A stretch of 64,000 nt of DNA from positions 1 through 64,000 of IMG/VR virus record IMGVR_UViG_2596583652_000001; one strand, 5' to 3'. How positions within the stretch are numbered: the stretch's first letter is position 1; each line of letters begins with the position of its first letter. Below the pieces are notes generated by a model. The model was not told where the DNA came from. It did not search any database and was given only the letters and a program-made list of their open reading frames with translations. Positions 716 to 61,812 of the stretch are shown in pieces. Source of the DNA: a virus. Its lineage: Duplodnaviria; Heunggongvirae; Uroviricota; Caudoviricetes. The translations under genes and the position numbers were made by a program.

Positions 716-742
716 CTTCTGAGTGAGCACATACTTAGCGAG
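716..742. promoter_or_regulatory. copy of the recurring GTGAGCACATACTTA-type palindromic motif
   Basis: tctgagtgagcacatacttagcgagc lies about 10 bp upstream of the ATG at 752. Confidence 0.4.
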
Positions 743-751
743 CGCACAGTG

Positions 752-979
752 ATGGATGAGCCTCCCTGCAAGATCGGCGACGAGATCGTGCTCGTCTTCA
801 TGGGCAACGATCCGTGCCCGATTCCGCCCGGCACCCGCGGAAGGGTGCGGAGCGTCAACAAGCTCCTCTTCTGTCAGAGCGACCGCTACCAGATCATGGT
901 CGACTGGCAGATCGAGCGCAGCCTGATGCTGGTGTGGCCGGCCGACCAATTCCGGGTGGTGCCACATGCCGCTTCGTGA
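752..979 (+). CDS. DUF4314-like small protein
   Basis: Internal ATG of track ORF 674..979 (MDEPPCKIGDEIVLVFMGNDPCPIPPGTRGRVRSV...). The GD.V.......DP.PIP.GT.G.V signature matches my recollection of DUF4314. Confidence 0.45.
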   Translation: MDEPPCKIGDEIVLVFMGNDPCPIPPGTRGRVRSVNKLLFCQSDRYQIMVDWQIERSLMLVWPADQFRVVPHAAS

Positions 980-1202
980 GCGACTGATCCGGTTTCTCAA
1001 CTGGTGGAATGGCTGGCGCCTCGACCTCGACGATTGGTGGGTTCGGGCCCGGCGCGAGAGTGACCCGTCCAATCTGCCGTCGAGCATCGGCTTCCTGGAA
1101 GAGGCTTGCATCGTCGTGCGGACGCCCGAGCAGGCCCGCGAGGTGGACACCGGCGCGATCGCTGAGCGCGAGGAAGTCTATTACGAGCCGCGGGAGTTGT
1201 GA
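966..1202 (+). CDS. hypothetical protein
   Basis: 78-aa ORF overlapping the upstream stop. The competing 1009..1470 frame is Arg/Ser-rich and read as an artefact. Confidence 0.35.
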   Translation: MPLRERLIRFLNWWNGWRLDLDDWWVRARRESDPSNLPSSIGFLEEACIVVRTPEQAREVDTGAIAEREEVYYEPREL

Positions 1203-1203
1203 C

Positions 1204-1470
1204 ATGGCATTCGACAAAGAGCCTCGCACTGGCTTTGACGGCGGCGCTGCGATAGCGGCGGTCTGCCTGCTCGCGATCGGCGCATTCTTCTACAGCGCTG
1301 CTGATTTTGGCGAGCGGGAGGCAAGATACGCCGAGCAGCAGCGCCAGAAGGAAGCCATCTGCGGACGGATCGGCGCTGAATATGTGGAGCAGCGCAAGGG
1401 TATGCCGCTCTGTGTGTTGGCCGACGGTCAAGTGTTCCTCTTTCGATCTGTTAAGGAGCGATTCCAATGA
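1204..1470 (+). CDS. hypothetical N-terminally membrane-anchored small protein
   Basis: ATG at 1204 in frame with track ORF 1009..1470 (MAFDKEPRTGFDGGAAIAAVCLLAIGAFFYS...). One transmembrane helix. Confidence 0.4.
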   Translation: MAFDKEPRTGFDGGAAIAAVCLLAIGAFFYSAADFGEREARYAEQQRQKEAICGRIGAEYVEQRKGMPLCVLADGQVFLFRSVKERFQ

Positions 1471-1910: not shown

Positions 1911-1936
1911 CTGTTATAAGTGAGCAGTCACTTACG
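1911..1936. promoter_or_regulatory. palindromic motif copy (TTATAAGTGAGCAGTCACTTA)
   Basis: Perfect inverted repeat TAAGTGA-gcag-TCACTTA in the gap between 1892 and 1954. An identical 23-mer recurs at 7363. Confidence 0.5.
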
Positions 1937-6681: not shown

Positions 6682-7335
6682 ATGAGCTACACTTACGTCA
6701 TTGGCGATATTCACGGCCGCGCCGATCTCCTCACGCTCGCCCTGCGCAAGATCGCCGACCATGCCCAGGAGCCGGGCACCATCATTACGCTCGGCGACTA
6801 CACCGACCGCGGCCCGGACAGCAAAGGCGTGGTGACGCGCCTGATGGCTGGCGTCAGCGACGGCTGGAAGATGATCAACCTCATGGGCAACCACGAGCAG
6901 ATGGTCTTCTGGACCTACCGCGGGAAGACCAAGCCCGATTGGTGGATCGACAACGGCGGCGACGCGACGATCGCCTCCTATGGCGGATCCCGCGAGAACA
7001 TCCCGGTGGAGCACATCGAGTGGATGGAGCAGCTGCCGCTCTTCCACGAGGATGAGCACCGGGTCTATGTCCACGCCTGGGTGGATCCCCACCTGCCCCT
7101 CAAAGAGCAGTCGGATTCCAGCATGCTCTGGGTGCGCTATCGCACGCCCTGGGAAGGCGGTTGGAACGACAAACACGTCGTTCACGGCCACACGCCGGTG
7201 CGGGGCGGACCTGCCATCTTCGAGCATCGCACCAATCTCGACACCGGCGCATTCGCCAGCGGTCTCCTCGCCGTGGGTGTTTTCGATGACGCCAAGCCGG
7301 GCGGACCTGTTCTCATTTTCAACATGACCGCCTGA
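6682..7335 (+). CDS. Ser/Thr protein phosphatase, lambda-phosphatase-like metallophosphoesterase
   Basis: The GDIHG, GDYTDRG and GNHE motifs in canonical order. Ribosome-binding site AGGAGA upstream. Confidence 0.8.
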   Translation: MSYTYVIGDIHGRADLLTLALRKIADHAQEPGTIITLGDYTDRGPDSKGVVTRLMAGVSDGWKMINLMGNHEQMVFWTYRGKTKPDWWIDNGGDATIASYGGSRENIPVEHIEWMEQLPLFHEDEHRVYVHAWVDPHLPLKEQSDSSMLWVRYRTPWEGGWNDKHVVHGHTPVRGGPAIFEHRTNLDTGAFASGLLAVGVFDDAKPGGPVLIFNMTA

Positions 7336-7362
7336 CGCCTGCGCGATCCCAGCACGCTCATC

Positions 7363-7388
7363 GTTATAAGTGAGCAGTCACTTATTAA
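7363..7388. promoter_or_regulatory. palindromic motif copy (GTTATAAGTGAGCAGTCACTTATTAAATGAGAG)
   Basis: Identical to the 1913 copy. Lies 12 bp upstream of the ATG at 7400. Confidence 0.5.
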
Positions 7389-7513: not shown

Positions 7514-8364
7514 AGCGCTTTACCCTCGGCCTGTTCGCCTTTGGCGCCCTCGCCGTTCTCGTGACCATCCTCGGCACCTACTACACCATCAATGAACGCG
7601 AGCGCGGCGTCATCCTGCGCAACGGCGCTGTCGTCGGTGACGCCGGCCCGGGCGCTCACCTCAAGGTGCCGTTCATCGACGACGTGGTCACGGTCTCGAT
7701 CGAGACCCAGAAGCAGCTCTACACCACGGCCGCCTACACGTTCGACCAGCAGCCGACGGATATCGCCCTGTCGGTCATCTACAGCGTGCCGGCCAGCCAG
7801 GTGAAGGCGCTCTATGCGCGCTTTGGCAGCATTGAGCGGATGATCGACAGCGTGGTCACGCCCAAGGTCATGGAGCAGACCAAGAACGTCCTCGGCGGCT
7901 ACACCTCGACGACGGCGGTGCAGAACCGCGCCAAGCTCAACAATGACGTCACCACGGCCATCTATCACGCCATCAAGGAGCTCAACGCGCCGATCCTCGT
8001 CGAGGCGGTGCAGATCGAGAACATCGACCAGAGCGACGCCTTCGAGCGGTCGGTCGAGGAACGCATGCTGGCCCAGGTCGAGGTCGAGAAGCTCAAGCAG
8101 AACGCGGAGCGCGAGAAGGTGCAGGCGCAGATTGTCGTCACCAAGGCCCAGGCTCAGGCGGACAGCCAGTTGGCCGTGGCAAAGGCGACCGCCGATGCCA
8201 CTCGTCTGCAGGGTGAAGCGGCCGCTGATGCGATCCGGGCCCGGTCCAAGGCACTCGCCGACAATCCGGCGCTGATCGAGCTCACCAAGGCCGAGAAGTG
8301 GAACGGAGCGATGCCGACCACCATGCTCCCCAACACGGCGATGCCCTTCTTCTCCCCGAAGTAA
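7510..8364 (+). CDS. SPFH/band-7 (prohibitin/HflKC-like) domain membrane protein
   Basis: N-terminal transmembrane helix. SPFH core (ERGVILRNGAVVG...LKVPFIDDV...) followed by a long Ala/Gln/Glu-rich coiled coil. Confidence 0.7.
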   Translation: MKRFTLGLFAFGALAVLVTILGTYYTINERERGVILRNGAVVGDAGPGAHLKVPFIDDVVTVSIETQKQLYTTAAYTFDQQPTDIALSVIYSVPASQVKALYARFGSIERMIDSVVTPKVMEQTKNVLGGYTSTTAVQNRAKLNNDVTTAIYHAIKELNAPILVEAVQIENIDQSDAFERSVEERMLAQVEVEKLKQNAEREKVQAQIVVTKAQAQADSQLAVAKATADATRLQGEAAADAIRARSKALADNPALIELTKAEKWNGAMPTTMLPNTAMPFFSPK

Positions 8365-8440
8365 GCCAGCATCGCCGGATCCACCACTATCAAGCGAGGG
8401 CGCCTCCGGGCGCCCTTTTCTTTTAGCTCGCGAACAGGGG

Positions 8441-8656
8441 TTGGAAATGTCCCGCCATACAGAGTGCGAGGCGCGTGTCCTTGGTCACGCCGATCAGCTG
8501 ATCCATCGGATCAAGGGCGGATCCCTTAACCGATCAGCATTCGAGCATCTGATGGAGAGTTTCGTGGAGGTGCCGGGTATCGACGCGATCTGGCGCGGGC
8601 GCCTGGTCGACGCAGCGCTTGCCCGGCTTGATGCCGCCGTCCCGGAGGGTGCATAA
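8441..8656 (+). CDS. hypothetical protein
   Basis: 71-aa ORF, the last before a terminator-like hairpin. Confidence 0.3.
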   Translation: MEMSRHTECEARVLGHADQLIHRIKGGSLNRSAFEHLMESFVEVPGIDAIWRGRLVDAALARLDAAVPEGA

Positions 8657-8837
8657 CCCTGCCGCGCTCCAAACGTCGATGCGCTATGATTGAGAGATTC
8701 GAGAGCGAAAGCAGCAGCGCCGGTCAAGGGCGGCGCGACCGGGAAGATGGGCTTTCCCGGCTGTGGCGACAGCCTCGCTCTCGAGACTGGAGGTGCGCTG
8801 TGTGGTTCCCACTTAGCATCACCTTAGTGTGGGAAAA

Positions 8838-8880
8838 GACCCGGACGTCCCTGAAAATGACCGTCCGGGTCCAATTCTTC
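8838..8880 (+). terminator. hairpin, candidate intrinsic terminator
   Basis: Perfect 10-bp stem GACCCGGACG-(14 nt)-CGTCCGGGTC followed by the T-rich run caattcttcat. A second hairpin CCCAC...GTGGG sits immediately upstream (8803-8836). Confidence 0.4.
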
Positions 8881-9027
8881 ATCTAAGAAACGAGGGGTCG
8901 GGCGAAAGCTCGGCCTCTCACTCCAGACTGAAATATAGCACTACCGAGCGGGCTTTCAATGCCGCTCGACACCAGCCGCTTTCGTGCATCGCTCATGCGA
9001 CAATGACAAGTCATCAGGAGACTTGCG

Positions 9028-9303
9028 ATGCACTTCTATTCCCCAACACCAGAGCCCCTGGGCCATGCGATCGATACTCACCGCATGGACGGAACAAAGC
9101 AGTGGTTGAAGCACTACAGCAACCTGCTGGTCCTATCGTTCTTTGCTAAGAACGGCACACGCAAAGAGCGTGCCGACGCCGAAGCCGAGATCATTATTTG
9201 CAGACGCAAGCTGACTTACTGGGAGCGGCATCATAATTACGATGCGGCTGCGGCACGCGAGGGAGCGATGGCGCTAAAGAAGACCTGGGAGGCTCCTCGC
9301 TAG
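9028..9303 (+). CDS. hypothetical protein in a lower-GC island
   Basis: AGGAGA ribosome-binding site 8 bp upstream of the ATG. Codon usage is visibly more A/T-rich than the flanks. Confidence 0.45.
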   Translation: MHFYSPTPEPLGHAIDTHRMDGTKQWLKHYSNLLVLSFFAKNGTRKERADAEAEIIICRRKLTYWERHHNYDAAAAREGAMALKKTWEAPR

Positions 9304-9595
9304 CGAAAACCTCGGCGCCATAGAACAGAGCCTCGGCACACGTCTGGGTTAGATCCGCAGACGTGTGCCGGAGGAACAGCGCGGCGTCGAAGCGGTGCCC
9401 CATTTGGGTGATCTCGTTCTGGATCGTGGCGAGCACGCTGCTGCGCAGCCTGGCGACCATGAGATTTATTTCCTCAACCGTCATTCCCCTCATCATCCTC
9501 AGCCTCATCTAGGAGTTTGTTCCTACTATGTTCTCATAGCCGCCGCAAGCCCCGGCGATTCATTCCTGAACGCACCAGAGTCATCCCAAGTCTAG

Positions 9596-11065: not shown

Positions 11066-11306
11066 GTTCGCCGTCGCCGGGCTGATGGCCGAGATGCGGC
11101 GGCAGTTCATGACGATCCAGCCGGAGAGGGAGTGTCCGATCAAGCCGCTCGCTGCCTACAGCCCGCAGCACCGCTCGGCGCTCATGGCCGGCGTCGCCAA
11201 GGCCATTGAGCTGGCCGGCGCCGAGCACGACAAGACCTTCGAGGCGTGGGTCGCCCGAAGCCGGGAAGAAGCCGCCGCTGCCCAGCAGCAACCCAATTTC
11301 GGCTGA
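11037..11306 (+). CDS. hypothetical protein
   Basis: 89-aa ORF. Confidence 0.45.
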   Translation: MMTINRQRLEFAVAGLMAEMRRQFMTIQPERECPIKPLAAYSPQHRSALMAGVAKAIELAGAEHDKTFEAWVARSREEAAAAQQQPNFG

Positions 11307-11310
11307 GCTA

Positions 11311-11335
11311 CATTATCAGTATGTGCATACTTCGG
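11311..11335. promoter_or_regulatory. palindromic motif copy (CAGTATGTGCATACTTCGG)
   Basis: Fills the 31-bp gap between the stop at 11306 and the ATG at 11338. Confidence 0.45.
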
Positions 11336-12573: not shown

Positions 12574-12595
12574 CATCCGTATGTGCATACTGAAC
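12574..12595. promoter_or_regulatory. palindromic motif copy (CCGTATGTGCATACTGAAC)
   Basis: 8 bp upstream of the ATG at 12604. Confidence 0.45.
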
Positions 12596-14446: not shown

Positions 14447-14604
14447 CCTCGAACCGGACCAGGAGCCACGCCGCTATAAATGACCCAAGGCATCCGCCGG
14501 CCGGGTTCTATGTGAGCGCATCCTTATGTCCAGCGAAGACCCCTGCCGCGTTCCATCTGTGCAGATGCTAGAAGTAATATAGTAGTCACAGAGAGTTAAC
14601 GGCA

Positions 14605-18027: not shown

Positions 18028-18306
18028 ATGAGCGCCGCCGAGATTGCCCAGCTCCATCAGACCATCCGCCAGCACCGGGCCCGACTGATCGACCTGCTCC
18101 AGAACGATCCCGTCCTGGTTCTTGAGCATGACGGCCTTCGGCTGCCCATTCTGCCCGGCAGAGATCTCCTCCATCCGGCAACCGGTCTGGCCTTCTCCTA
18201 CGAAGAGGCGCGCCGGGAGGAGCTGACGCACGAACTCAACCAGATCACCATGGCTCTCACCCGGCTGAAGGAGCTCGACGCGCCCACTCTCCTCGGGAAG
18301 ATCTAG
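18028..18306 (+). CDS. hypothetical protein
   Basis: ATG at 18028 in frame with track ORF 17896..18306 (MSAAEIAQLHQTIRQHRARLIDLLQ...). Confidence 0.4.
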   Translation: MSAAEIAQLHQTIRQHRARLIDLLQNDPVLVLEHDGLRLPILPGRDLLHPATGLAFSYEEARREELTHELNQITMALTRLKELDAPTLLGKI

Positions 18307-19458
18307 CCCACGGGATCCGCCCGCACACCTTCCCGGCGCCAACATAATGTAAAGCTCTGCGTCAAACTCCGCCTCACCAGGCCCGAAAAGACCCCTCCCC
18401 TCTTCCCCGGAAATTCTCCGTCTATCTACCCGGATAGATAGAAGTGTTACGCTATGTTGTCGGAGTTTTACCTAAATCGGCCATTTCGGCCCTTTTCAGC
18501 GAAATGACCCAGTTTCGCGTCGTCACTCTAGAGCGATAGATAGACGCGAACCTGATTTACAGATCTAGCTAGATAGCTAGAGACGCATGCACAGCGTCGG
18601 GATGCACTCAGAGCAGCGCAGATAGCTATCGACGCATCCGCAGCGCTCAGCGACGCGCTCTGACGATCTCAGCACGCGAACCACTGAGAAAGCTAGACCT
18701 GCATCTAGCTAGATAGCTATTCCCTCAGAGAGCACAGACACGAGAGAGCGCGACGCTCAGACGGTGTGCCTCTAGTGAGAGAACGGCCATATGCGTGCAC
18801 TGGACGTGTGACGAGAGCCGGTCGCGAGTGTGTAGCCGCTCGGTGTGAGCAGATATGAGATCGGTGTGAGAGAGTGGTGGGTTCCGCGCCGCGGTTCTCC
18901 TAGGCTTCCCACGGCAAACCATGGCACCTCCGAAAACCCAACCGGACCCATGGAACCGGAATGGCTCGCTCCGCACCTAGGCCCAGCCAGACCCGTCGCC
19001 GCAGCGGAACAGGCAGTCCTGAGCCGGAGAGTCTCTACGCCGGAACATCGCCAGGCTTCTACGCCGGAGAGCCTCGGGAAAGAGGAGGTTTTCCTGACTA
19101 ATTACAAACCCTTTAAGAAGCATACATACTATACAGGCGATGGCACGGGACGTTAGGTCCGGATCGGTCCTATTCCGCACGAGCGGTCCATGGCACATCC
19201 ATGGCTCTCCATGGTTCCGGCTCGCGCGACGGCGGCGCTCCATGGATCAGACCCTTTCGGTGCAGTCATTCCATGGTGAACCATGGGCCGCACAGTATCG
19301 GTTACAGGTTTCGGCGGCTCCCATGCGTGCGCCCTGCGTATTACGACCCTGCCTGCACCTGTCCAACCCAAATATTCACCCATGATTGTTTCGTCTATTC
19401 TCTAATCATCGAAACGCAAGACGCTTTCGACGCAACAGAGAGAAAACGGAGCAAGACA
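18307..19458. repeat. ~1.15-kb noncoding repeat tract (iteron-like; candidate origin or immunity region)
   Basis: No credible ORF. Contains the palindrome TCTATCTAcccggaTAGATAGA (18421-18443), GCGATAGATAGACGCG, three copies of CTAGCTAGATAGCTA-type repeats (18561-18582, 18619-18638, 18689-18720), a CCATGG array (18920-19290), and composite element A (19035-19152). Confidence 0.55.
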
Positions 19459-22711: not shown

Positions 22712-22903
22712 TCAGGCCAGGCCGAGGTCCTGAAGGATGCGCCGGCGCTTGGCCTCCAGGCTCATGCGCTGGCTCATGAGGCGAAACACGCCATAGACGT
22801 CCTGACTGTTGCAGGCTTCCCGGGCCTGGTTGGTGATGGCGTTGGCGATGGTGTCGAATGCCTTGGTGATTTCGTTCTCGGTCTTGGTGCGGTGCATAGC
22901 CAT
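22712..22903 (-). CDS. small protein, candidate DNA-binding regulator
   Basis: 63-aa minus-strand ORF with GGAGAC upstream. It is the only coding sequence inside a ~1.3-kb tract of GATTYAGCTA, TTCAGCTAT and GCAGGAATG repeats (22375-22700). Confidence 0.35.
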   Translation of the reverse strand: MAMHRTKTENEITKAFDTIANAITNQAREACNSQDVYGVFRLMSQRMSLEAKRRRILQDLGLA

Positions 22904-23055
22904 GGTGGTGTCTCCGGTTGGTGTGCCCGTGGGACGCCCGGTAGGGCGTAGGGGTGAGGTCTGGCTGGCTTTTGGGGCAGGGCAGGCGAGGGAGGCGGGG
23001 ATGCGCTTTTCGAGAGAGCTAGAGCGCTTTGCAGCGCTCTAGCGTGTCTCGCGCG

Positions 23056-23905: not shown

Positions 23906-23933
23906 GAATGTAAGTATGTATTGACTTACTTTC
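23906..23933. promoter_or_regulatory. palindromic motif copy (GTAAGTATGTATTGACTTAC)
   Basis: Lies between the low-GC island and the ORF at 24015. Confidence 0.4.
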
Positions 23934-27426: not shown

Positions 27427-27455
27427 CAAAGTATGTGATTGCTTACTTATATCGG
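27427..27455. promoter_or_regulatory. palindromic motif copy (AAGTATGTGATTGCTTACTTAT)
   Basis: 14 bp upstream (minus-strand sense) of the kinase-like gene start at 27413. Confidence 0.4.
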
Positions 27456-27512
27456 TGCCCCTCAGAGCTTGATTTTCCCGATGCAGAACCAGCTATTCAG
27501 CTAGACCTGCAT

Positions 27513-29373: not shown

Positions 29374-29400
29374 ATATAGTAAGTAAGCACATACATCATT
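29374..29400. promoter_or_regulatory. palindromic motif copy in a divergent promoter region
   Basis: TAGTAAGTAAGCACATACATCAT lies between the minus-strand helicase start (29336) and the + strand ATG at 29415. Confidence 0.45.
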
Positions 29401-30143: not shown

Positions 30144-30814
30144 GCCACACGTCGTCGATCGAGATTTGGGATATCGAGAAGATCATCCCCTATGAGGCGA
30201 ACGCCAAGAAGCACCCCAAGGAGCAGGTGAAGAAGCTTGCCCAGGCAATCACCAAGTTTGGCTGGACTCAGCCGATCGTGGTCGATGTTGATGGCGTGAT
30301 CATCGCCGGCCACGGCAGGCGTCTCGCCGCGCTGGAGCTGAAGCTCACCAAGGTGCCGGTCATTCACCGGGCCGACCTGACCAAGGCCGAGGCGGACGCG
30401 CTGCGCCTCGCCGACAACCGGGTGGCCTCGACCGATTACGACCAGGCGCTGATCCAGGACGAACTGCGCCGGCTCGCGGATGAGCTCGAGGGCTCCCAGA
30501 TCACGCTCCTCGATATCGGCTTCGACGAGAAGGAGCTCGAATTCACCATGAGCGACCTGGGCGAGGTCAATGACGACTTCTTCGTCGAGGACGTCGGCGA
30601 GGCGGTCGAGCAGCAGAAGAAGGAGAACGCCAAGGCGATCGAGGCGACGGACGACGTCGCCGCGCCGATCGGTGACGCCTTCGGCTTCAAGCGTGTCTCC
30701 ATTGCCCAGTCGCGCGCCATCCGCGAAATGATGAGCACCATCGAGACCTCGACCGGCAAGGTGGGGCCCGAGGCGCTGATCCTGTTCCTTTCCGACGCCC
30801 TCAATCGTAAGTGA
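30140..30814 (+). CDS. ParB-like nuclease domain protein (paralog 2)
   Basis: IIPYEANAKKHPKEQ...IIAGHGRRLAALEL is the classic ParB N-terminal box. ATGA overlap with paralog 1. Confidence 0.65.
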   Translation: MSHTSSIEIWDIEKIIPYEANAKKHPKEQVKKLAQAITKFGWTQPIVVDVDGVIIAGHGRRLAALELKLTKVPVIHRADLTKAEADALRLADNRVASTDYDQALIQDELRRLADELEGSQITLLDIGFDEKELEFTMSDLGEVNDDFFVEDVGEAVEQQKKENAKAIEATDDVAAPIGDAFGFKRVSIAQSRAIREMMSTIETSTGKVGPEALILFLSDALNRK

Positions 30815-30828
30815 GCGCATACTTATGG
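30804..30828. promoter_or_regulatory. palindromic motif copy (CGTAAGTGAGCGCATACTTATGG)
   Basis: Occupies the whole 10-bp gap between the stop at 30814 and the ATG at 30825. It overlaps both codons. Confidence 0.45.
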
Positions 30829-33601: not shown

Positions 33602-33726
33602 CCAACGCCGGAACCTCATCCCGTTCCTTCGCCTGTCTTATAATAGAATATAAGTTACAACATACTTATATTAGTATATAGACAGGCGAAGGAACGGGAT
33701 TTCCTGGTCCAACTCTCCGGCGTTGG
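33602..33726. repeat. composite palindromic element B (GC-rich arms, AT-rich core with TATAAT)
   Basis: Outer arms CCAACGCCGG/CCGGCGTTGG. Inner 21-bp perfect arms ATCCCGTTCCTTCGCCTGTCT (33618-33638) and AGACAGGCGAAGGAACGGGAT (33680-33700). The 41-bp core is cttataatagaatataagttacaacatacttatattagtat. It lies 60 bp upstream of terS. Confidence 0.6.
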
Positions 33727-33759
33727 AAATACGTATGCGGTAACTTACATGGTGAAGAG

Positions 33760-35705: not shown

Positions 35706-35708
35706 GCT

Positions 35709-35736
35709 TGCTTATAAGTGAGCACATACTTATTAT
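35709..35736. promoter_or_regulatory. palindromic motif copy (CTTATAAGTGAGCACATACTTATTATG)
   Basis: Lies between terL and portal. Confidence 0.5.
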
Positions 35737-38472: not shown

Positions 38473-38500
38473 GGATAATAAGTGAGCACATACTTATTCT
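38473..38500. promoter_or_regulatory. palindromic motif copy (GGATAATAAGTGAGCACATACTTATTCT)
   Basis: 28 bp upstream of the capsid ATG. Confidence 0.5.
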
Positions 38501-39431: not shown

Positions 39432-39435
39432 TCTT

Positions 39436-39464
39436 GCACATAAGTATGTGCATACATAGTATGG
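39436..39464. promoter_or_regulatory. palindromic motif copy (CACATAAGTATGTGCATACATAGTATGG)
   Basis: Immediately downstream of the capsid stop. Confidence 0.45.
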
Positions 39465-39506
39465 GCGGGAGCAATCCCGCCCATTGCTGTTTGCGGACCT
39501 CTTTTC

Positions 39507-42996: not shown

Positions 42997-43026
42997 TTAA
43001 AGTATGTATGTGCATACTTTCTAATT
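42997..43026. promoter_or_regulatory. palindromic motif copy (AAAGTATGTATGTGCATACTTTCT)
   Basis: 26 bp upstream of the major tail protein ATG. Confidence 0.5.
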
Positions 43027-43051: not shown

Positions 43052-43885
43052 ATGCCTTCGTCCGCCGAAAACGTTAAGCTCGGCGTCTGCAACGTTCTCT
43101 TCGACGGCCGCAACCTGGGCTATACCAAGGGCGGTGTCGAGGTGGAGGTGACGACGTCGACCCATCCCGTGACCGTCGACCAGACCGGCGAGACGCCGAT
43201 CGGCGAGCTCGTCACCGGTCGTCAGGTCAAGGTGACCGCGCCGCTCGCCGAGACCACGCTCGACAATCTCGTGGCTGTGATGCCTGGCTCGACCCTGATC
43301 ACCGACGGCGCTAAGGCGTCGGGCTCCGTGACCTTCAAGACCGCGGCCCCGGTCAATGGCGACAAGATCGTTCTGGCCAGCACCACGATCACCTTCAAGA
43401 CCGTTCCCGCGGGTCCGTTCGATCTGCCGATTCCGGCGACCATCGGCGCTGCGGCCTCGGCGCTTGCTGATGTGATCAACGCCTCCAACCTGCCCTTCGT
43501 CGCCTCGGCAAATGCGGGGGTCACCACGATCACCGCCAAGACGCGCGGTGTGGCCGGCAACGTCGCCCTGGTTGCCACCTTCGTAACCGCGGCCAACGTC
43601 ACGGCCGTGGCCCTGACCGGCGGTGTCGATGTCACCAAGGCACAGGTGAAGGTCTCGACCGGCGTGAACATCAACCTGCTGTCGGTGGCCAAGACTCTGG
43701 TCCTGCGCCCGATCGGCACCACGGGCGCTGACGACTTCACCGTCTACAAGGCCGCCTGCCCGGGCGCGATCAACTTCACCTACCAGCAGGACGCCGAGCG
43801 CATCTATTCGGCGGTCTTCACCGGCTACGCCGCCGACGACGGCGGTCTGTTCGCCGTCGGCGACGTGACCGCCACGGGCGCCTGA
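43052..43885 (+). CDS. major tail (tube) protein
   Basis: 277 aa, Thr/Val/Ala-rich and beta-type, followed by the chaperone with frameshift and the tape measure gene. Canonical order. Confidence 0.7.
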   Translation: MPSSAENVKLGVCNVLFDGRNLGYTKGGVEVEVTTSTHPVTVDQTGETPIGELVTGRQVKVTAPLAETTLDNLVAVMPGSTLITDGAKASGSVTFKTAAPVNGDKIVLASTTITFKTVPAGPFDLPIPATIGAAASALADVINASNLPFVASANAGVTTITAKTRGVAGNVALVATFVTAANVTAVALTGGVDVTKAQVKVSTGVNINLLSVAKTLVLRPIGTTGADDFTVYKAACPGAINFTYQQDAERIYSAVFTGYAADDGGLFAVGDVTATGA

Positions 43886-43973
43886 CCTTTGGCCCTTCAG
43901 GGCTGATGCCAGTCAACGGCCGGCGCTCACGAACAGGGCGCCGGCCATTTTGTTCTCCACCAGCGGATCCATC

Positions 43974-44315: not shown

Positions 44316-44677
44316 AGTCCGCTGATCTCGGATTTCTGTTCGCCAAGGTCCTGCGGGAGTTCCGGCTCTCCTGGGACGAGATGATGGCGATGCCGGTGCG
44401 TCGCTTCTGGTTCCTCCTGAGCCAGATCGACCGACTCCGGGCGGAGGATGGCCTCGAACAGCTGGCGCTGCTGGCCGCCGTGACCAACGAGGAGGGCTAC
44501 AAATCCCTTCACGGAAGTCTCGGGAAGCAGATCGGGGAGATCTACGTCTACGAGCCGATCCGCACTGGCGAGATCCAGATCGTGGGTGGTGTGGCGCTCA
44601 CTGACGAGGGTCTTGATCCCAGCTTCGACCGCGCCGGGCTCATGGCGCTCAAACGGCGCATTCAGTCCGGCGGGTAA
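44291..44677 (+). CDS. -1 frameshift extension of the tail assembly chaperone (lambda GT equivalent)
   Basis: Slippery heptamer G GGA AAG at 44291-44297, identical to lambda G/T. The -1 frame is open from 44282 through the track ORF 44381..44677 (...GKGPQRELKSADLGFLFAKVLREFRLSWDEMMAMPV...). Confidence 0.6.
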   Translation, partial: GKGPQRELKSADLGFLFAKVLREFRLSWDEMMAMPVRRFWFLLSQIDRLRAEDGLEQLALLAAVTNEEGYKSLHGSLGKQIGEIYVYEPIRTGEIQIVGGVALTDEGLDPSFDRAGLMALKRRIQSGG

Positions 44678-44703
44678 TATCAGTATCTACATACTTACTT
44701 TGG
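44676..44703. promoter_or_regulatory. palindromic motif copy (ATCAGTATCTACATACTTACTTTGG)
   Basis: 11 bp upstream of the tape measure ATG. Confidence 0.4.
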
Positions 44704-49707: not shown

Positions 49708-49740
49708 CCGTGAAGTAAGCAGGTGCTTATTTCGTCCTTG

Positions 49741-49769
49741 CTATATGTGAGCACATACTTATTATGAGG
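49741..49769. promoter_or_regulatory. palindromic motif copy (CTATATGTGAGCACATACTTATTATGAGG), with a second, degenerate copy at 49709-49733
   Basis: Overlaps the ATG at 49764. Confidence 0.45.
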
Positions 49770-57993: not shown

Positions 57994-58024
57994 CTAATGT
58001 ATGTGTGTGCATACTTACTTTGAC
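57994..58024. promoter_or_regulatory. palindromic motif copy (CTAATGTATGTGTGTGCATACTTACTTTGAC)
   Basis: 15 bp upstream of the first lysis-cassette ORF. Confidence 0.5.
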
Positions 58025-59183: not shown

Positions 59184-59581
59184 TGCTGTCGTTTCTCGGT
59201 ATTTCCCCGCTCAAGCTTGCCGTCGCCTGCGGCGCGATTCTGGTAGTCCTCGCCAGCATCTTTGGCGCCTTTTCCTATGTGCGCTCGCTCACCCGCGAAC
59301 TCGCCAGCACGCAGTCCCAGCTCGCCGTGGAAACCCAGCTGCGTGAGCGCACCCAGGCCGAGCTCACCCTCGTGCGCGCCGCCCAGCTGAAGCAGATCCA
59401 GGACATCAAGACCCTCGACGCGCTCAATACGGCCTCGGCCGTCGCTTGGGGCGAGGTCGAGCGCGAGGTCGAAACCATCAACACGAAAGGGCCGGCCGAT
59501 GCGCTCGCTGCTGATCTCAACCGTCTCAATCGCGCTGCTAACGGCATGCTCCGGAAAGCCGCCGGAGCCGGTGACCGCTGA
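59180..59581 (+). CDS. inner-membrane spanin (Rz-like)
   Basis: N-terminal transmembrane helix then a long coiled coil. Contains an embedded out-of-frame lipoprotein gene. Confidence 0.65.
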   Translation: MMLSFLGISPLKLAVACGAILVVLASIFGAFSYVRSLTRELASTQSQLAVETQLRERTQAELTLVRAAQLKQIQDIKTLDALNTASAVAWGEVEREVETINTKGPADALAADLNRLNRAANGMLRKAAGAGDR

Positions 59582-59777
59582 GCCGATCGCGCGCTATCAC
59601 CCGCCCGTTCCGGCGGCGCCGCGGCTGGACGATGTCGATTACAAGTCCTGTGAGAGCGGAAAGATGATCTGCCTCACGCCGGAAGAGGCGCGAACCGAGA
59701 TCGCCAACAAGGTGCGCGTCGGGGTGTTTATCGACAAAGCGATGAACGTGATCCGCTATTACCGCCTGCAGGACTAG
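59499..59777 (+). CDS. outer-membrane spanin lipoprotein (Rz1-like), partly embedded in the Rz-like gene
   Basis: Lipobox LLTAC-SGKPPEP; Pro-rich. Overlaps the C-terminus of the Rz-like gene in another frame. Confidence 0.65.
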   Translation: MRSLLISTVSIALLTACSGKPPEPVTAEPIARYHPPVPAAPRLDDVDYKSCESGKMICLTPEEARTEIANKVRVGVFIDKAMNVIRYYRLQD

Positions 59778-59780
59778 ACT

Positions 59781-59866
59781 ACGCCGGAACATCCCGTTCC
59801 ATCGCGTGTCTATTACTGTAATCTCTTAGATAACTATTATACTATACAGGCGAAGGAACGGGATGA
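59781..59866. repeat. composite palindromic element C
   Basis: CTACGCCGGAACATCCCGTTCCATCGCGTGTCT - AT-rich 32 bp - ATACAGGCGAAGGAACGGGATG. The right arm abuts the ATG at 59867. Related to elements B (33602) and A (19035). Confidence 0.5.
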
Positions 59867-61783
59867 ATGCCCGGTAACGAGTTCGAGAACCGCTTCGCCC
59901 AGATCTACAACGACATCTCTGCCTACCCGACGCTCCGGGATGTGGCCCGCGGCCTCGGCAAGAGCGTCAAGACCGTGCGCAACTACTCGGCGCTGCTGCG
60001 CCGGCGCACGGAGGCGGGCAGGGCGGTTCCCGGGCTAATCTGGCGTGGCCCGGCGAGTGATGCGCCGGCCTATGCCCTGAAGATCGACGCGGCGCCCGAA
60101 TTGTCCTCGGCCGATCATGCCCACCGGCGTGCCAGCCAGCTCGCCAACGACGTCTCCTCGCTTCTCCTGGCCTCGCGTTATCCGGTCATCAACCCTGAAG
60201 CCATGGTGGTGCGCTCGCACATGGTCCGGCGCTACGACCGCGCGCTCGGCGACTATGTCGAGGTTGAAGGATCTCCGCGGACCTGGCTGACCGACACGCT
60301 GCGTGTCGCCGGCGTAGACAAGCCGGCCGGCCGGACCTTCCTGTTCACCGGCGCCCAGAACGATGCTCCGGTGGATCAGGACTTCTGGCGCAACCTCAAC
60401 GCCTATGCCCAGTGGCTTGGCGCGGAGATCGTCGTAGGACCCTGGACCTACGAGACCAATTGGTGGGATGAGAACAACCCGGCCAGTCGTGACTACGACC
60501 CGGTCCTGATGCCGCATCTGTGCTTCGGCCAGATGGAGATCGGCCCGGATTTCGTCTTCTGCGGCGAGATGAACACGCTGCCGACGGCCGCGCGGCCAAT
60601 CTCGGATCTCACCACCTATTCGCGCGGGCGCTGGGCGGTGTTTCCGCACGCCAAGCTCCAGCTGCTCTCGATCCCCTCGACCGATCCGCACACGCCCGCC
60701 CATCAGATCATGACGACCGGGTCGGTCACTCGGCCAATGGTGATCCCGCGCAAAGCCGGCGTGAAGTCGCTGTTCCATCACGTCATCGGCGCCACCATCG
60801 TAGAGTTCGACGAGGACGGCACCTTCTTCTGCCGCCAGCTCAGCGCGGATGAGAACGGATCCTTCTACGATCTGGACGTGCTGGTGAAGGCGGGAGAGAT
60901 CTCGACCGGGCACCGCGCGCTCGCCATGACCGCGGCCGACATTCATGCCGCCAAGCTCGACCGCGGCAATTGTCTGACCACATTCGGCTTCGACCCGAAG
61001 ACCCAGGCGCGGCGCTCGGACAGCCTGCTGGATACGGTTCGGCCCGAGCACCTGCTGATCCACGATCTCCATGACCAGGAGAGCCGGAACCATCATCACG
61101 AGGACGACGTCAGCCACAATTTCGAGATGGCCGTGCGCGGCCGCGAGAGCGTGATGGGCGAGGTGCAGCGCGCCGTCGACTTCCTTTTGAGCATCAAGGC
61201 GCCCGAGACAGAGATCATCGTCGTGGAGTCGAACCATGACTTGGCGCTGGAGCGCTATGTGAGGGAAGGGCGCTACCGCATGGACGGTGTGAACTTCCGG
61301 GTGGGACTGACCCTGGACGCGGCCTATCACGACTGGCGCGCCGAAGTCGCAAAGGCGCTTGACGGCAATCTGCCGGCGCCGACCTTCTCGCTGCTCGAAT
61401 GGACCATGCGCTTTCTCGCGGGTCCGAAGCTGCACCACGTCAAATGGGTGCATGACGGCCAGTCCCTTGTCATCGATGGCGTTCAGGTCGGCGCACACGG
61501 CTTCCGCGGCGCCAATGGAGCCAAGGGCACGGTCGCCGGCTATGCCCGGCTCGGTCAGAAGATGTCGATCGGCGACAAGCACTCGCCGGCGATCCTGGAC
61601 GGGGTCTACGTCGCCGGCGTGATGCAGCTGAACCACGGTTACAACAAGGGTCCGTCCGGCTGGTCGGTGACCCATATCCTGCAGTATCGCAACGGGAAGC
61701 GGGCGCTCGTCACACTGCGCAACGGGCGCTTTCGGGCGTCGCGCCCGCGCATAAGCCTTGCAAATCCGTGCCCTGCTGTGTAA
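59867..61783 (+). CDS. large protein with an N-terminal HTH and a C-terminal metallophosphoesterase-like motif set
   Basis: 638 aa. HTH TLRDVARGLGKSVKTVRNY. Later HDLHD...HEDD...VVESNHD...GAHGF resembles the calcineurin-like phosphoesterase motifs D.H / GD / GNH[DE] / GH. Confidence 0.55.
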   Translation: MPGNEFENRFAQIYNDISAYPTLRDVARGLGKSVKTVRNYSALLRRRTEAGRAVPGLIWRGPASDAPAYALKIDAAPELSSADHAHRRASQLANDVSSLLLASRYPVINPEAMVVRSHMVRRYDRALGDYVEVEGSPRTWLTDTLRVAGVDKPAGRTFLFTGAQNDAPVDQDFWRNLNAYAQWLGAEIVVGPWTYETNWWDENNPASRDYDPVLMPHLCFGQMEIGPDFVFCGEMNTLPTAARPISDLTTYSRGRWAVFPHAKLQLLSIPSTDPHTPAHQIMTTGSVTRPMVIPRKAGVKSLFHHVIGATIVEFDEDGTFFCRQLSADENGSFYDLDVLVKAGEISTGHRALAMTAADIHAAKLDRGNCLTTFGFDPKTQARRSDSLLDTVRPEHLLIHDLHDQESRNHHHEDDVSHNFEMAVRGRESVMGEVQRAVDFLLSIKAPETEIIVVESNHDLALERYVREGRYRMDGVNFRVGLTLDAAYHDWRAEVAKALDGNLPAPTFSLLEWTMRFLAGPKLHHVKWVHDGQSLVIDGVQVGAHGFRGANGAKGTVAGYARLGQKMSIGDKHSPAILDGVYVAGVMQLNHGYNKGPSGWSVTHILQYRNGKRALVTLRNGRFRASRPRISLANPCPAV

Positions 61784-61812
61784 GTATGCCCTCACTTATT
61801 TCATGAGTGAGC
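61778..61812. promoter_or_regulatory. palindromic motif copy (TAAGTATGCCCTCACTTATTTCATGAGTGAG)
   Basis: Lies between 61783 and 61820. Confidence 0.4.

What the first reader, a model, noticed from the sequence alone, without database searches (positions are those of the whole stretch)
716..61812. A ~20-bp imperfect palindrome (about ATAAGTGAGCACATACTTAT) recurs at around 18 intergenic sites across the whole phage
Reading the intergenic gaps, the same AT-rich palindrome appears at 716, 1913 and 7363 (identical 23-mers TTATAAGTGAGCAGTCACTTA), 11311, 12574, 23906, 27427, 29374, 30804, 33651, 35709, 38473, 39436, 42997, 44676, 49709, 49741, 57994 and 61778. It is always outside or at the very edge of coding sequence, usually 8-30 bp upstream of a start codon. 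It heads every major module: portal, capsid, major tail, tape measure, L, lysis, and the divergent helicase/ParB promoter. In a genome of roughly 65% GC, an AT-rich 20-mer recurring this often by chance is very unlikely. Its position next to start codons argues for a shared cis element. Candidates are an operator or promoter recognised by a phage-encoded regulator or sigma-like factor, or an RNA-level element such as a processing or translation-initiation hairpin in the polycistronic transcript. The copy at 30804 fills a 10-bp gap between a stop and a start codon, which favours an RNA-level or very compact promoter role.
Basis: seen in the sequence. Interest (0 to 1): 0.8.

Follow-up and report, generated by a model that had tools for sequence, protein, structure and literature searches.

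The report
Phage-plasmid's dispersed palindromic operator sites
An 18-base palindrome that recurs 21 times between the genes of this plasmid-like phage sits on its promoters. It is most likely the site through which one phage-encoded repressor keeps the whole virus silent, and related phage-plasmids from Rhizobium, Acinetobacter, Klebsiella and Yersinia carry their own versions at the same places.

Summary
All 19 listed copies are real and two more exist (14509, 33730). That gives 21 copies of an 18-bp dyad, TAAGTRWG-NN-CWYACTTA, all outside coding sequence, against about 0.16 expected by chance.

The window is part of a roughly 115-120 kb phage-plasmid of the pLM21S1/RHEph10 group. Complete relatives carry about 40-53 copies at the same intergenic positions, with lineage-specific half-sites (TAAGTAAG, TAAGTCAG, TCAGTCAAT). 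The same 18-bp frame recurs in Acinetobacter, Klebsiella SSU5-like and Yersinia pMT plasmids.

Departures from symmetry are not compensated and RNA folds are weak, so it is not a hairpin. The dyad lies on sigma-70-like promoters in three registers:
- inside a conserved TTGnnn-17-TAnnAT spacer;
- abutting a -10 hexamer;
- just downstream of an alphaproteobacterial GCTAnAW -10.

Best reading: it is the operator of a dimeric, phage-encoded global repressor that silences nearly every operon in the plasmid state, like P1 C1 operators or L5 stoperators. The likeliest binder is a conserved XRE-family protein next to repC, the orthologue of Cyrano CYRAN_45. It is encoded outside this window, and this assignment is inferred. 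No paper found describes the motif.

The parts
720..737 (.). Dyad copy TGAGTGAGCACATACTTA. An alpha-type -10, GCTATAT (706-712), lies 7 nt upstream (class I). The next start codon is at 752.
1917..1934 (.). Dyad copy TAAGTGAGCAGTCACTTA. The -10-like GTTATAA (1913-1919) overlaps its first 3 nt (class I). The start codon at 1954 lies 19 nt downstream.
7367..7384 (.). Dyad copy identical to the one at 1917. GTTATAA (7363-7369) overlaps it (class I).
11316..11333 (.). Dyad copy TCAGTATGTGCATACTTC. GCTACAT (11307-11313) lies 2 nt upstream (class I). A ribosome-binding site and the start codon at 11344 follow directly.
12576..12593 (.). Weaker dyad copy TCCGTATGTGCATACTGA. No promoter element was recognised.
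14509..14526 (.). No promoter element was recognised.
23911..23928 (.). Dyad copy TAAGTATGTATTGACTTA. The -10-like GAATGT (23906-23911) ends on its first T. It lies 86 nt upstream of the Acb2/Tad1-like gene at 24015.
27432..27449 (.). Dyad copy between two minus-strand genes. Read on the minus strand, TATAA precedes TAAGTAAGCAATCACATA. It lies 18 nt from the start codon at 27413.
29380..29397 (.). Dyad copy in the 79-bp divergent region between the helicase gene (start 29335, minus strand) and the ParB_N gene (start 29415). The -10-like TATAGT (29375-29380) ends on its first T (class III). The site is syntenic in all relatives.
30808..30825 (.). Dyad copy filling the gap between the stop of the second ParB_N gene (30814) and the next start codon (30825). 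It is syntenic in B1VFA, Shinella, pLM21S1 and Methylobacterium.
33651..33668 (.). Dyad copy TAAGTTACAACATACTTA in the loop of a perfect 19-bp inverted repeat (33620-33638 / 33680-33698), upstream of the terS-like gene.
   Evidence: relatives
33730..33747 (.). It lies 12 nt upstream of the terS-like start codon at 33760 and is syntenic in relatives.
35708..35736 (+). Class II promoter-like unit between the terminase and portal genes. It reads TTGCTT (35708-35713), a 17-nt spacer, then TATTAT (35731-35736). The dyad at 35715-35732 fills the spacer and its last TA begins the -10.
   Evidence: The TTGnnn-17-TAnnAT architecture is present in 7 of 7 genomes, with a different dyad in each lineage.
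38479..38496 (.). Dyad copy upstream of the major capsid gene (start 38529). GATAAT (38474-38479) ends on its first T. An alternative reading is TTGGAT-18-TATTCT.
39434..39462 (+). Class II unit after the capsid gene. It reads TTGCAC, a 17-nt spacer, then TAGTAT, with the dyad at 39441-39458 in the spacer. It is directly followed by the terminator-like hairpin at 39461-39484.
43003..43020 (.). Dyad copy upstream of the major tail gene (start 43052). TAAAGT (42998-43003) ends on its first T (class III).
44680..44697 (.). Dyad copy upstream of the tape-measure gene (start 44714). TAATAT (44675-44680) ends on its first T (class III).
49712..49729 (.). Weak dyad copy GAAGTAAGCAGGTGCTTA, 32 bp upstream of the next copy. 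A paired site occupies the same position in pLM21S1.
49738..49765 (+). Class II unit before the minor tail L-like gene. It reads TTGCTA, a 16-nt spacer, then TATTAT, with the dyad at 49744-49761 in the spacer. The probable start codon is at 49788.
58000..58017 (.). Dyad copy heading the lysis region. TAATGT (57995-58000) ends on its first T (class III).
   Evidence: syntenic B1VFA site at 82306
61781..61798 (.). Dyad copy TAAGTATGCCCTCACTTA. Its first TAA is the stop codon of gene 59867-61783. It is the one copy whose asymmetric halves are in the opposite order.

Best explanation
The 18-bp dyad is the DNA operator of a dimeric, phage-encoded transcription factor that acts as a global repressor of a phage-plasmid. 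Each half-site is about 7-8 bp and the two centres lie roughly one helical turn apart.

**Mechanism (inferred).** The dyad overlaps the core of most promoters in three registers:
- the -35/-10 spacer plus the first bases of the -10;
- directly abutting the -10, so that it covers +1;
- just downstream of the -10, over the start of the transcript.

A bound dimer would therefore exclude or trap RNA polymerase and keep early, structural and lysis operons off while the element replicates as a plasmid. Copies with no recognisable promoter could act as roadblocks or auxiliary sites. Loss of the repressor would release all operons.

**Status of each step.**
- Shown here: the dyad itself, its position on promoter-like elements, its synteny, its lineage-specific divergence, and the absence of base-pair covariation.
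- Inferred: that binding represses transcription.
- Inferred: that the binder is the conserved XRE-family HTH protein encoded next to repC. This gene lies outside the window and is the orthologue of Cyrano CYRAN_45.
For: **1. It is real and non-coding.** There are 21 sites against about 0.16 expected, and none lies inside coding sequence.

**2. Positions are conserved while the sequence diverges by lineage.**
- B1VFA has 39-40 sites of TAAGTAAG-NN-CTTACTTA. All are intergenic or at gene edges by its GenBank annotation.
- The Shinella plasmid has 51-53 sites.
- pLM21S1 has the same type. The Methylobacterium plasmid has TAAGTCAG-CG-CTGACTTA. RHEph10 and the Pararhizobium plasmid have TCAGTCAAT.ATTGACTGA.
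- Fifteen IMG/VR contigs carry further variants.
- B1VFA and RHEph10 both infect Rhizobium yet have different dyads, which argues for a phage-encoded reader rather than a host one.

**3. The symmetry comes from two half-sites, not from pairing.**
- Deviations are one-sided and pair-breaking: 16 against 1 compensated in the window, 11 (+3 G:T) against 0 in B1VFA, 82 (+9 G:T) against 3 in Shinella.
- The pair-count test shows 78.2% pairing against 78.5% in shuffles.

**4. Promoter context.**
- The terminase-to-portal gap reads TTGnnn-17 nt-TAnnAT in 7 of 7 genomes, with the lineage-specific dyad as the spacer. The post-capsid gap shows this in 4 of 7 genomes and the pre-tail-L gap in 6 of 7, with degenerate -35 elements in the rest.
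- Among 98 sites in plus-strand gene regions, an alpha-type -10 (GCTAnAW) lies 0-9 nt upstream in 23 forward cases against 3 reverse. A TAnnnT hexamer ending on dyad position 1 occurs in 17 forward against 5 reverse.
- Registers centred near -20, +1 and +5 are repressor positions.

**5. The lifestyle needs such a switch.** Relatives are phage-plasmids with repC, parA and parB.

**6. Candidate binder.**
- An HTH_3 protein of about 130 aa sits next to repC in every relative and has dyads around it.
- Homologues occur in 775 plasmid records.
- In Cyrano it is CYRAN_45, annotated 'putative repressor'. It is one of the few genes expressed in the lysogen, at 10 times background (PMC9928086).
- In Cyrano, a Klebsiella plasmid and Y. 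pestis pMT, a family-type dyad lies close upstream of the gene. In Cyrano and pMT it follows a TAATAT.
Against: - No binding or transcript data exist for any member of the group. Every promoter is a sequence prediction.
- The E. coli-consensus promoter scan is not enriched in 33-50.5 kb: 4 hits against 2.6 expected.
- Six of the 21 window sites show no recognisable promoter element.
- The XRE recognition helix (xNPNMITMLK) does not track the half-site variants cleanly. For example, L028/L029 carry ENPN with an AGTCA half-site.
- In Acinetobacter, the dyads beside the XRE gene are AGTCA-type, whereas the dispersed ones are AGTAAG-type.
- The XRE gene of this particular phage could not be retrieved.
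- The window's copies are strand-asymmetric: GTGAG on the left and CATAC on the right, giving 9 G:T against 1 A:C mispairs. A purely symmetric homodimer site does not predict this.
- A motif conserved from Alpha- to Gammaproteobacteria is more conserved than immunity operators usually are.
Confidence: 0.62

Rival explanations
1. The dyad is the same DNA operator with the same silencing role, but a different phage protein reads it. One candidate is either of the two conserved ParB_N/Srx-domain proteins encoded in the window (29415-30143, 30140-30814), which would act like KorB of plasmid RK2. Other candidates are the small wHTH-like protein (33346-33597) and the small gene divergent from the XRE gene.
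For: - Both ParB_N proteins sit in the operon that starts at the dyad-bearing divergent promoter, and this arrangement holds in all relatives.
- The second ParB_N protein has homologues in 1,170 plasmid records, giving it the same breadth as the motif.
- Its C-terminal GFKRVTI strand-helix segment is highly conserved and looks ribbon-helix-helix-like by eye.
- ParA here is followed by its own small RHH-like protein (a weak, sub-threshold Pfam hit), so the ParB_N proteins may be free for another role.
Against: - No DNA-binding domain was detected by Pfam beyond ParB_N.
- Their sequences show no clear change matching the dyad variants.
- KorB operators are fewer and often lie far from promoters (my own knowledge).
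- The XRE protein has direct lysogen-expression support in Cyrano.
Confidence: 0.15
2. The dyad is an activator site or a phage-specific promoter element. A phage transcription factor would bind it and recruit host RNA polymerase, or polymerase carrying the phage sigma factor. This would resemble the inverted repeat centred near -22 in the Lpa-dependent late promoters of P1.
For: - In class II units the dyad centre lies about 20 bp upstream of the predicted start, close to the P1 late-promoter geometry (the P1 geometry is from my own knowledge).
- Relatives encode a sigma-70-family factor.
- The motif heads essentially every operon.
Against: - Class II units keep a good -35 (TTGCAA, TTGACG) at 17 bp from a good -10, so they should not need an activator.
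- In classes I and III the dyad lies at or downstream of the -10, covering +1. That is not an activator position.
- The spacing to the -10 varies from overlap up to 9 nt.
- The two halves are too close together to serve as -35 and -10 elements.
Confidence: 0.12
3. The dyad acts in the transcript as an RNA hairpin. It would be a processing site, a 5' stabiliser or a translation-control element bound by a phage RNA-binding protein.
For: - Many copies lie 10-33 nt upstream of start codons.
- In class I and III contexts the copy would be at the 5' end of the mRNA.
- The window copies show G:T rather than A:C mispairs on the coding strand, 9 against 1.
- One copy folds with a z-score of -2.8.
Against: - There is no covariation: 78.2% paired against 78.5% in shuffles, and 207 of 500 shuffles reach the covariation score.
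- Deviations break pairs.
- Minimum free energies are -1.5 to -7.8 kcal/mol, z-scores run from +0.7 to -2.8, and several copies fold some other way.
- Class II copies lie upstream of their own predicted start.
- Copies work in both gene orientations as a dyad.
- Rfam finds nothing.
Confidence: 0.04
4. The dyad is a binding site for a host regulator, such as CtrA, LexA or another global regulator, which the phage uses to sense host state.
For: - The core GTA...TAC is conserved across hosts of two proteobacterial classes.
- Phages of Alphaproteobacteria are known to carry CtrA boxes (PMC9437464, listed).
Against: - The sequence does not fit TTAA-N7-TTAA (CtrA) or GAAC-N7-GAAC (alphaproteobacterial LexA). 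Both consensus sequences are from my own knowledge.
- Two Rhizobium phages, B1VFA and RHEph10, have clearly different dyads at syntenic sites.
- Variants track phage lineage, not host.
Confidence: 0.03

Closest known systems
Phage-plasmid P1: C1 repressor and its dispersed operators
   Same: Both are temperate elements kept as plasmids. In both, one repressor has many operators spread over the whole genome, placed at promoters of separate operons. P1 has 22 operators (PMC8546580).
   Different: - P1 operators are 17 bp and asymmetric (ATTGCTCTAATAAATTT). Here the site is an 18-bp dyad.
- P1 controls its structural genes indirectly through Lpa. Here the dyad sits directly on the capsid, tail, tape-measure and lysis promoters.
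- Complete relatives here have about twice as many copies (about 40-53 per genome).
- No sequence or protein homology to C1 was tested or seen.
Mycobacteriophage L5 / Cluster A repressor sites ('stoperators')
   Same: - Both have 20-30 or more sites throughout the genome in short intergenic gaps.
- In both, some sites lie in promoters and others do not.
- In both, related phages have distinct consensus sequences that go with heteroimmunity (PMC6550527).
   Different: - Stoperators are 13-14 bp, lack dyad symmetry, are bound without cooperativity and point in the direction of transcription.
- Here the site is a dyad, and most copies overlap promoter-like elements rather than acting purely as roadblocks.
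Streptomyces phage phiC31 conserved inverted repeats bound by the c repressor
   Same: Both are dyad-symmetric repeats of about 17 bp at many intergenic sites across the genome, some at promoters.
   Different: The phage lineage and repressor family are different. phiC31 is an integrating phage, not a plasmid, and its copy number is lower.
IncP-1 plasmid RK2: KorB (ParB family) and KorA operators
   Same: Both have palindromic operators at many promoters of a plasmid backbone that give global silencing. ParB-family genes are present in both. This comparison rests on my own knowledge.
   Different: - The RK2 operator OB is a 13-bp palindrome at 12 sites, many of them distant from promoters.
- Nothing here shows that the ParB_N proteins bind the dyad.
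Cluster O mycobacteriophage 17-bp palindromes (TGTTCGG-N3-CCGAACA)
   Same: Both have 30 or more copies of an intergenic palindrome near gene starts, with function unproven. This comparison rests on my own knowledge.
   Different: The sequences and phages are unrelated, and no promoter-register analysis is known to me for Cluster O.

Membership tests
Dispersed immunity-repressor operators of temperate phages and phage-plasmids (P1 C1 type, L5 type) | Many copies of one short site spread over the whole genome, in non-coding DNA | tested here: met
   There are 21 copies in 64 kb, all non-coding. Complete relatives carry about 40-53 copies.
Dispersed immunity-repressor operators of temperate phages and phage-plasmids (P1 C1 type, L5 type) | Sites overlap promoters, or lie between genes in the path of transcription | tested here: inconclusive
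   Comparative promoter-like architecture is strong for class II units. The forward/reverse bias of -10 elements supports classes I and III. No transcription start sites are known, and the generic promoter scan is not enriched.
Dispersed immunity-repressor operators of temperate phages and phage-plasmids (P1 C1 type, L5 type) | Site sequence differs between related phages while positions are kept, as expected for specificity groups | tested here: met
   At least four half-site types occupy syntenic gaps.
Dispersed immunity-repressor operators of temperate phages and phage-plasmids (P1 C1 type, L5 type) | Bound by the element's own repressor, and binding silences transcription | not testable with these tools
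   Support is indirect only. A conserved XRE protein lies next to repC. Its Cyrano orthologue, CYRAN_45, is expressed in the lysogen.
L5-type stoperators specifically | An asymmetric 13-14 bp site oriented with transcription | tested here: not met
   The site is an 18-bp dyad, fully symmetric in B1VFA. Only a partial strand bias is seen in the window.
Structured RNA element or hairpin (processing site, 5' stabiliser, nut-like site) | Base pairs are maintained by compensatory change, and the fold is more stable than chance | tested here: not met
   There is no Rfam match.
Promoter of a phage RNA polymerase or phage sigma factor | A fixed-register recognition element that itself specifies the start site | tested here: not met
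   There are three registers relative to separate -35/-10 elements. No single-subunit RNA polymerase-sized gene was seen in the window or annotated in the relatives.
P1 Lpa-type late promoters | An inverted repeat centred near -22 replaces the -35 element | tested here: not met
   The geometry of class II units is similar, but a good -35 is retained at 17 bp. Other copies lie at or after the -10.
Intrinsic terminators | A G+C-rich stem followed by a T run | tested here: not met
   The dyad is A+T-rich with no T run. Separate terminator-like hairpins lie nearby at 38423-38442, 39461-39484 and 43918-43946.
ParB/KorB-type operators (parS or OB) | A palindrome bound by a ParB-family HTH protein | not tested
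   ParB_N proteins are present, but no binding evidence exists and no covariation is seen.

The most novel reading that the evidence does not exclude
One ancient regulator-operator pair is shared by the whole SSU5 / Acinetobacter AB / pLM21S1 phage-plasmid superfamily. That covers hundreds of clinical Klebsiella, Acinetobacter, Salmonella, Escherichia and Yersinia plasmids, including Y. pestis pMT.

On this reading the pair is wired directly onto nearly every promoter: early, structural, lysis, and the repressor's own. Half-site positions 6-8 would act as an immunity code defining which phage-plasmids exclude or cross-repress each other. Graded operator strength would set the order of gene expression after induction.
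Probability: 0.3. Interest if true: 0.7.

Novelty: new member of a known kind. Interest (0 to 1): 0.55.

Why it matters
- **A missing piece of regulation.** Phage-plasmids of this superfamily are common in rhizobia and in clinical Enterobacteriaceae and Acinetobacter. How they stay silent as plasmids is essentially undescribed. The genome papers for B1VFA, pLM21S1 and the phage-plasmid survey do not mention the repeat, and the exact motif strings occur in no paper of the library.
- **A regulon map from sequence.** The site is easy to recognise. It marks about 40-53 promoters per complete genome and yields predicted operon boundaries from sequence alone.
- **A prediction of immunity groups.** Lineages can be sorted by half-site type, which predicts who is immune to whom.
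- **A direct experiment.** The XRE protein can be tested against the 18-mer.
- **A possible tool.** The pair could serve as a compact orthogonal repressor-operator set for Alphaproteobacteria.

Tried and rejected
- **RNA hairpin.** Rejected on covariation counts and folding energies and the absence of any Rfam match.
- **Sigma-factor or phage-polymerase promoter.** Rejected because the dyad lies in three registers relative to separate -35/-10 elements.
- **Host CtrA or LexA boxes.** The sequence does not fit either consensus (from my own knowledge), and two Rhizobium phages differ.
- **Retrieving the rest of this phage, to read its own XRE gene.**
  - Exact-protein look-ups found only a 15-kb Logan contig from SRR4996318 that lies inside the window.
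  - The one exact motif hit among species-representative genomes is an unrelated Solibacteraceae contig.
  - IMG/VR has no exact hit.
  - The 14 metagenome hits are single copies, at about the number expected by chance for an 18-mer.
- **Identifying the binder by co-variation.**
  - Alignments of the wHTH-like, ParB_N and TerS-like proteins show no change that tracks the dyad type.
  - The second residue of the XRE helix tracks position 6 in about 9-10 of 12 lineages by my own tally (N or R with A; Q, K or T with C). This has exceptions and is confounded by phylogeny.
- **Generic E. coli-type promoter scan.** Not enriched, 4 against 2.6 expected. The promoter argument rests on comparative conservation instead.
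- **Pfam scans.** Thirty-five window ORFs were scanned. They gave no above-threshold helix-turn-helix or winged-helix hit, only two ParB_N proteins and weak sub-threshold HTH_7, wHTH-like and RHH hits.

Full report
**Observation**

A weight matrix built from those copies separates 21 sites (at least 15.8 bits) from everything else in the window (11.6 bits or less).

A symmetric 18-mer matrix gives 20 sites at 18 bits or more. Two hundred dinucleotide-preserving shuffles give a mean of 0.16 sites at 12 bits or more. The matrix-independent pattern AAGT-N8-ACTT occurs 9 times against 0.12 expected.

Conservation is confined to about 24 nt around an 18-bp dyad, TAAGTRWG-NN-CWYACTTA. All copies lie outside coding sequence or touch only a stop or start codon.

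- Only 1913 and 7363 are identical. The copy at 716 is another variant.
- GC content is about 63%.
- The copy at 49709 is weak.

**What the window is**

The window is collinear with the Rhizobium siphophages B1VFA, V1VFA-S and RHph_X66, and more distantly with RHEph10. Nucleotide identity is 74-77% in the terminase, portal and capsid genes.

It is also collinear with plasmids of about 115-120 kb from Rhizobium, Shinella, Sinorhizobium (pLM21S1), Methylobacterium and Pararhizobium. These elements are described as phage-plasmids carrying repC, parA and parB (PMC12509600; PMC4447125; PMC7969092).

The window covers about half of such a genome:
- an early or accessory region;
- the minus-strand helicase-to-parA block;
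- two ParB_N genes;
- the packaging, head, tail and lysis genes.

It does not reach repC or the sigma-factor gene that relatives carry.

**The motif is a family trait with lineage-specific sequence**

| Element | Copies found | Dyad |
|---|---|---|
| B1VFA (whole genome) | 39-40 | TAAGTAAG-NN-CTTACTTA, a perfect dyad |
| Shinella plasmid (whole genome) | 51-53 | same type as B1VFA |
| pLM21S1 | not counted | same type as B1VFA |
| Methylobacterium plasmid | not counted | TAAGTCAG-CG-CTGACTTA |
| RHEph10 and Pararhizobium plasmid | not counted | TCAGTCAAT.ATTGACTGA |
| 15 IMG/VR contigs | not counted | further variants |
| Acinetobacter pA1296_1 (50 kb) | at least 14 | TTAGTAAGCGCTTACTAA |
| Klebsiella SSU5-like plasmid (50 kb) | at least 9 | TATGTAAATACATACATA and TAAGTATGTGTATACTTA |
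| Y. pestis pMT (50 kb) | 3 | family-type |

By its GenBank annotation, every B1VFA copy falls in an intergenic gap or at a gene edge.

The positions are the same across genomes:
- the helicase/ParB divergent region;
- after the second ParB_N gene;
- two copies before terS;
- between terminase and portal;
- before and after the capsid gene;
- before the major tail, tape-measure and tail-L genes;
- before the lysis genes.

The second Klebsiella form is almost the window's own variant.

B1VFA and RHEph10 both infect Rhizobium but have different dyads. The reader of the site is therefore phage-encoded rather than a host factor. This last step is an inference.

**DNA site, not hairpin**

If the symmetry served base pairing, changes in one arm should be compensated in the other. 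They are not.
- One-sided, pair-breaking deviations outnumber compensated doubles 16 to 1 in the window.
- In B1VFA the figures are 11 (+3 G:T) to 0, and in Shinella 82 (+9 G:T) to 3.
- The tool's own count on the 21 aligned copies gives 78.2% paired cells against 78.5% in column shuffles.
- The covariation score is 0.141 against 0.137, reached by 207 of 500 shuffles.

RNA folds of 30-nt windows range from -1.5 to -7.8 kcal/mol, with z-scores from +0.7 to -2.8. Several copies fold in another way. Rfam finds no family anywhere in the window.

Two conserved 7-8 bp half-sites with centres about 10-11 bp apart is the usual layout for a dimeric DNA-binding protein. This rests on established knowledge of HTH dimers.

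**Where it sits on promoters**

*Class II.* In the terminase-to-portal gap, all seven genomes read TTGnnn, a 17-nt spacer, then TAnnAT. The lineage-specific dyad is the spacer and its last TA is the first two bases of the -10. The post-capsid gap shows the same in 4 of 7 genomes and the pre-tail-L gap in 6 of 7, with degenerate -35 elements in the rest. In the window these units are at 35708-35736, 39434-39462 and 49738-49765.

*Class I.* In the early regions, an alphaproteobacterial housekeeping-type -10 (GCTAnAW) lies 0-9 nt upstream of the dyad. Window examples are 720, 1917, 7367, 11316 and, on the minus strand, 27432.

*Class III.* A TAnnnT hexamer ends on the dyad's first T. Window examples are 29380, 43003, 44680, 58000, and probably 38479 and 23911.

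Among 98 sites in plus-strand gene regions of three genomes, these upstream -10 elements are strongly directional. Class I shows 23 forward against 3 reverse, and class III 17 against 5.

The dyad centre therefore lies near -20, +1 or +5 relative to the predicted start. One site at several registers, all overlapping the core promoter, is the signature of a repressor operator. It is not the signature of a promoter element or an activator site. This is an inference, since no start site has been mapped.

The generic E. coli-type scan is not enriched, so the argument rests on comparative conservation. Six window copies (12576, 14509, 30808, 33651, 49712, 61781) have no recognisable promoter element. 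They may be auxiliary or roadblock sites.

**Who binds**

Pfam scans of 35 window ORFs gave no above-threshold helix-turn-helix or winged-helix hit. They found only:
- two ParB_N proteins;
- a weak HTH_7 hit in the terS-like protein;
- a weak wHTH-like 83-aa protein;
- a weak RHH-like protein after parA.

In every relative, an HTH_3 (Cro/CI-type) protein of about 130 aa lies next to repC. It is divergent from a small gene that precedes repC. In B1VFA, Shinella and the IMG/VR loci most like them, dyads lie about 140 bp upstream, just downstream, and about 740 bp downstream of its start.

Homologues covering the full length occur in 775 plasmid records, including Klebsiella, Acinetobacter, Enterobacter, Yersinia, Salmonella and Escherichia.

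In the E. coli LF82 phage-plasmid Cyrano, the homologue is CYRAN_45, annotated 'putative repressor'. It is listed among the few Cyrano genes expressed in the lysogen, at 10 times local background, and Cyrano is induced 39-fold by ciprofloxacin (PMC9928086).

In Cyrano, a Klebsiella plasmid and Y. pestis pMT, a family-type dyad (GGTAAGCACTTACC, GGTAAGTACTTACC, CAGTAAGCACTTACC) lies close upstream of this gene. In Cyrano and pMT it directly follows a TAATAT hexamer. That is the layout expected for negative autoregulation.

This makes the XRE protein the leading candidate, but it is not shown. Its recognition helix does not track the half-site variants cleanly. The gene of this particular phage could not be retrieved.

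**Rivals**

- *Same operator, different binder.* This would be a ParB_N protein acting like KorB, the wHTH-like protein, or the small divergent gene. It cannot be excluded.
- *Activator site like the P1 Lpa-dependent late promoters.* The class II geometry fits. The retained -35 and the class I and III registers do not.
- *RNA element or host-factor site.* Both are unlikely, for the reasons given above.

**Comparison and novelty**

In function, this resembles three known systems:
- the 22 dispersed C1 operators of the phage-plasmid P1 (PMC8546580);
- the 20-30 repressor sites of L5-type mycobacteriophages, whose consensus differs between heteroimmune phages (PMC6550527);
- from my own knowledge, the phiC31 conserved inverted repeats and the RK2 KorA/KorB operators.

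It differs from those systems in four ways:
- it is an 18-bp dyad;
- it is more numerous;
- it sits directly on structural-gene promoters;
- it is shared, with variation, by a superfamily spanning two proteobacterial classes.

The three papers read on these elements do not mention the repeat, and no paper in the library contains the motif strings. Subscription literature was not searchable.

I rate it a new member of a known kind of system: ordinary in principle, but undescribed and directly testable.

**Unexplained**

The window's copies are strand-asymmetric. The left half is GTGAG and the right half CATAC, in the same order at 8 or more sites and reversed only at 61781. This may reflect shared ancestry of promoter cassettes or promoter constraints on the right half. 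A symmetric homodimer model does not predict it.

Noticed in passing
window 33620-33638 and 33680-33698: A perfect 19-bp inverted repeat encloses a 41-nt A+T-rich loop that contains dyad copy 33651-33668. It lies just upstream of the terS-like gene (start 33760). B1VFA, pLM21S1, RHEph10 and the Pararhizobium plasmid have equivalent long hairpins at the same place. It could be a packaging (pac) site or a strong terminator.
   Followed up: partly
window about 685-712, 1880-1919, 7330-7369, 11280-11313; B1VFA early regions (L001, L003): A second conserved block lies upstream of early-region dyads: ..ACCTGA-N4-(A/C)TCCCAA-N~11-GCGCTATAA. The -10 is of the alphaproteobacterial housekeeping type, but the -35 position holds a non-canonical TCCCAA. 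Relatives encode a sigma-70-family factor (B1VFA_132, RHEph10 gp045, Shinella WP_306031467) that might read it.
   Followed up: partly
window 9631/9639, 18566-18714, 21752/21768, 23860-23885, 25349/25357, 27490-27520, 42952/42968: Clusters of (A/T)AGCT(A/T) repeats are spaced 8 or 16 bp apart, some as inverted pairs (AAATAGCTAC-N8-GTAGCTATTT). Similar TAGCTA or TAGCGA clusters occur in B1VFA and RHEph10. They look like iterons or centromere-like sites. The overall count is not above chance; only the clustering stands out.
   Followed up: partly
window 24015-24401 and 31897-32199: Two anti-defence-like genes. One protein has an Acb2/Tad1 hairpin domain (E = 4.6e-15) and lies directly downstream of dyad 23911. 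The other is a Tad2-like (PF11195) protein in the ParB_N operon.
   Followed up: no
window 25491-26404 (minus strand) and 29415-30814: A small ParA is followed by an 88-aa protein with a weak ribbon-helix-helix hit, as in a type Ib partition pair. The two ParB_N/Srx proteins lie in a different operon, and their conserved C-terminal segments (KTHxxMRFK, GFKRVTI) look RHH-like. Their role is unknown.
   Followed up: partly
window 38423-38442, 39434-39484, 43918-43946: The major capsid gene is bracketed by terminator-like hairpins. The predicted promoter at 39434-39462 would start transcription inside the 5' arm of the hairpin at 39461-39484. Read-through from the capsid gene would terminate there, but transcripts from this promoter would not. 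The hairpin is conserved in all relatives. A strong terminator also follows the major tail gene.
   Followed up: partly
window-wide, e.g. 720, 14509, 30808, 35715, 38479, 49744 versus 61781: The dyad copies are strand-asymmetric, with GTGAG on the left and CATAC on the right. This gives 9 G:T against 1 A:C mispairs on the plus strand. The feature is absent from B1VFA, whose copies are symmetric. It is unexplained.
   Followed up: partly
window 8364-9363, 18306-19459, 22903-24015: Stretches of about 1 kb have no confident ORF and lower third-position GC. No tRNA or Rfam match was found, although B1VFA has tRNAs in the equivalent region.
   Followed up: no
L035 (Y. pestis pMT) 30092-30109, 33033-33050, 43425-43442; L034 (Cyrano) 1460-1477: Family-type dyads survive in Y. 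pestis pMT and in E. coli phage-plasmid Cyrano. In each, one lies close upstream of the XRE 'putative repressor' gene, after a TAATAT hexamer.
   Followed up: partly
L004 2231-2249; L036-L049: The exact 18- or 19-mer also occurs once each in an unrelated Solibacteraceae MAG contig and in 14 metagenome contigs. L004 showed no similarity to the window. L036-L049 were checked only for further dyads and had none. The number of hits matches chance for an 18-mer in a collection of that size.
   Followed up: yes
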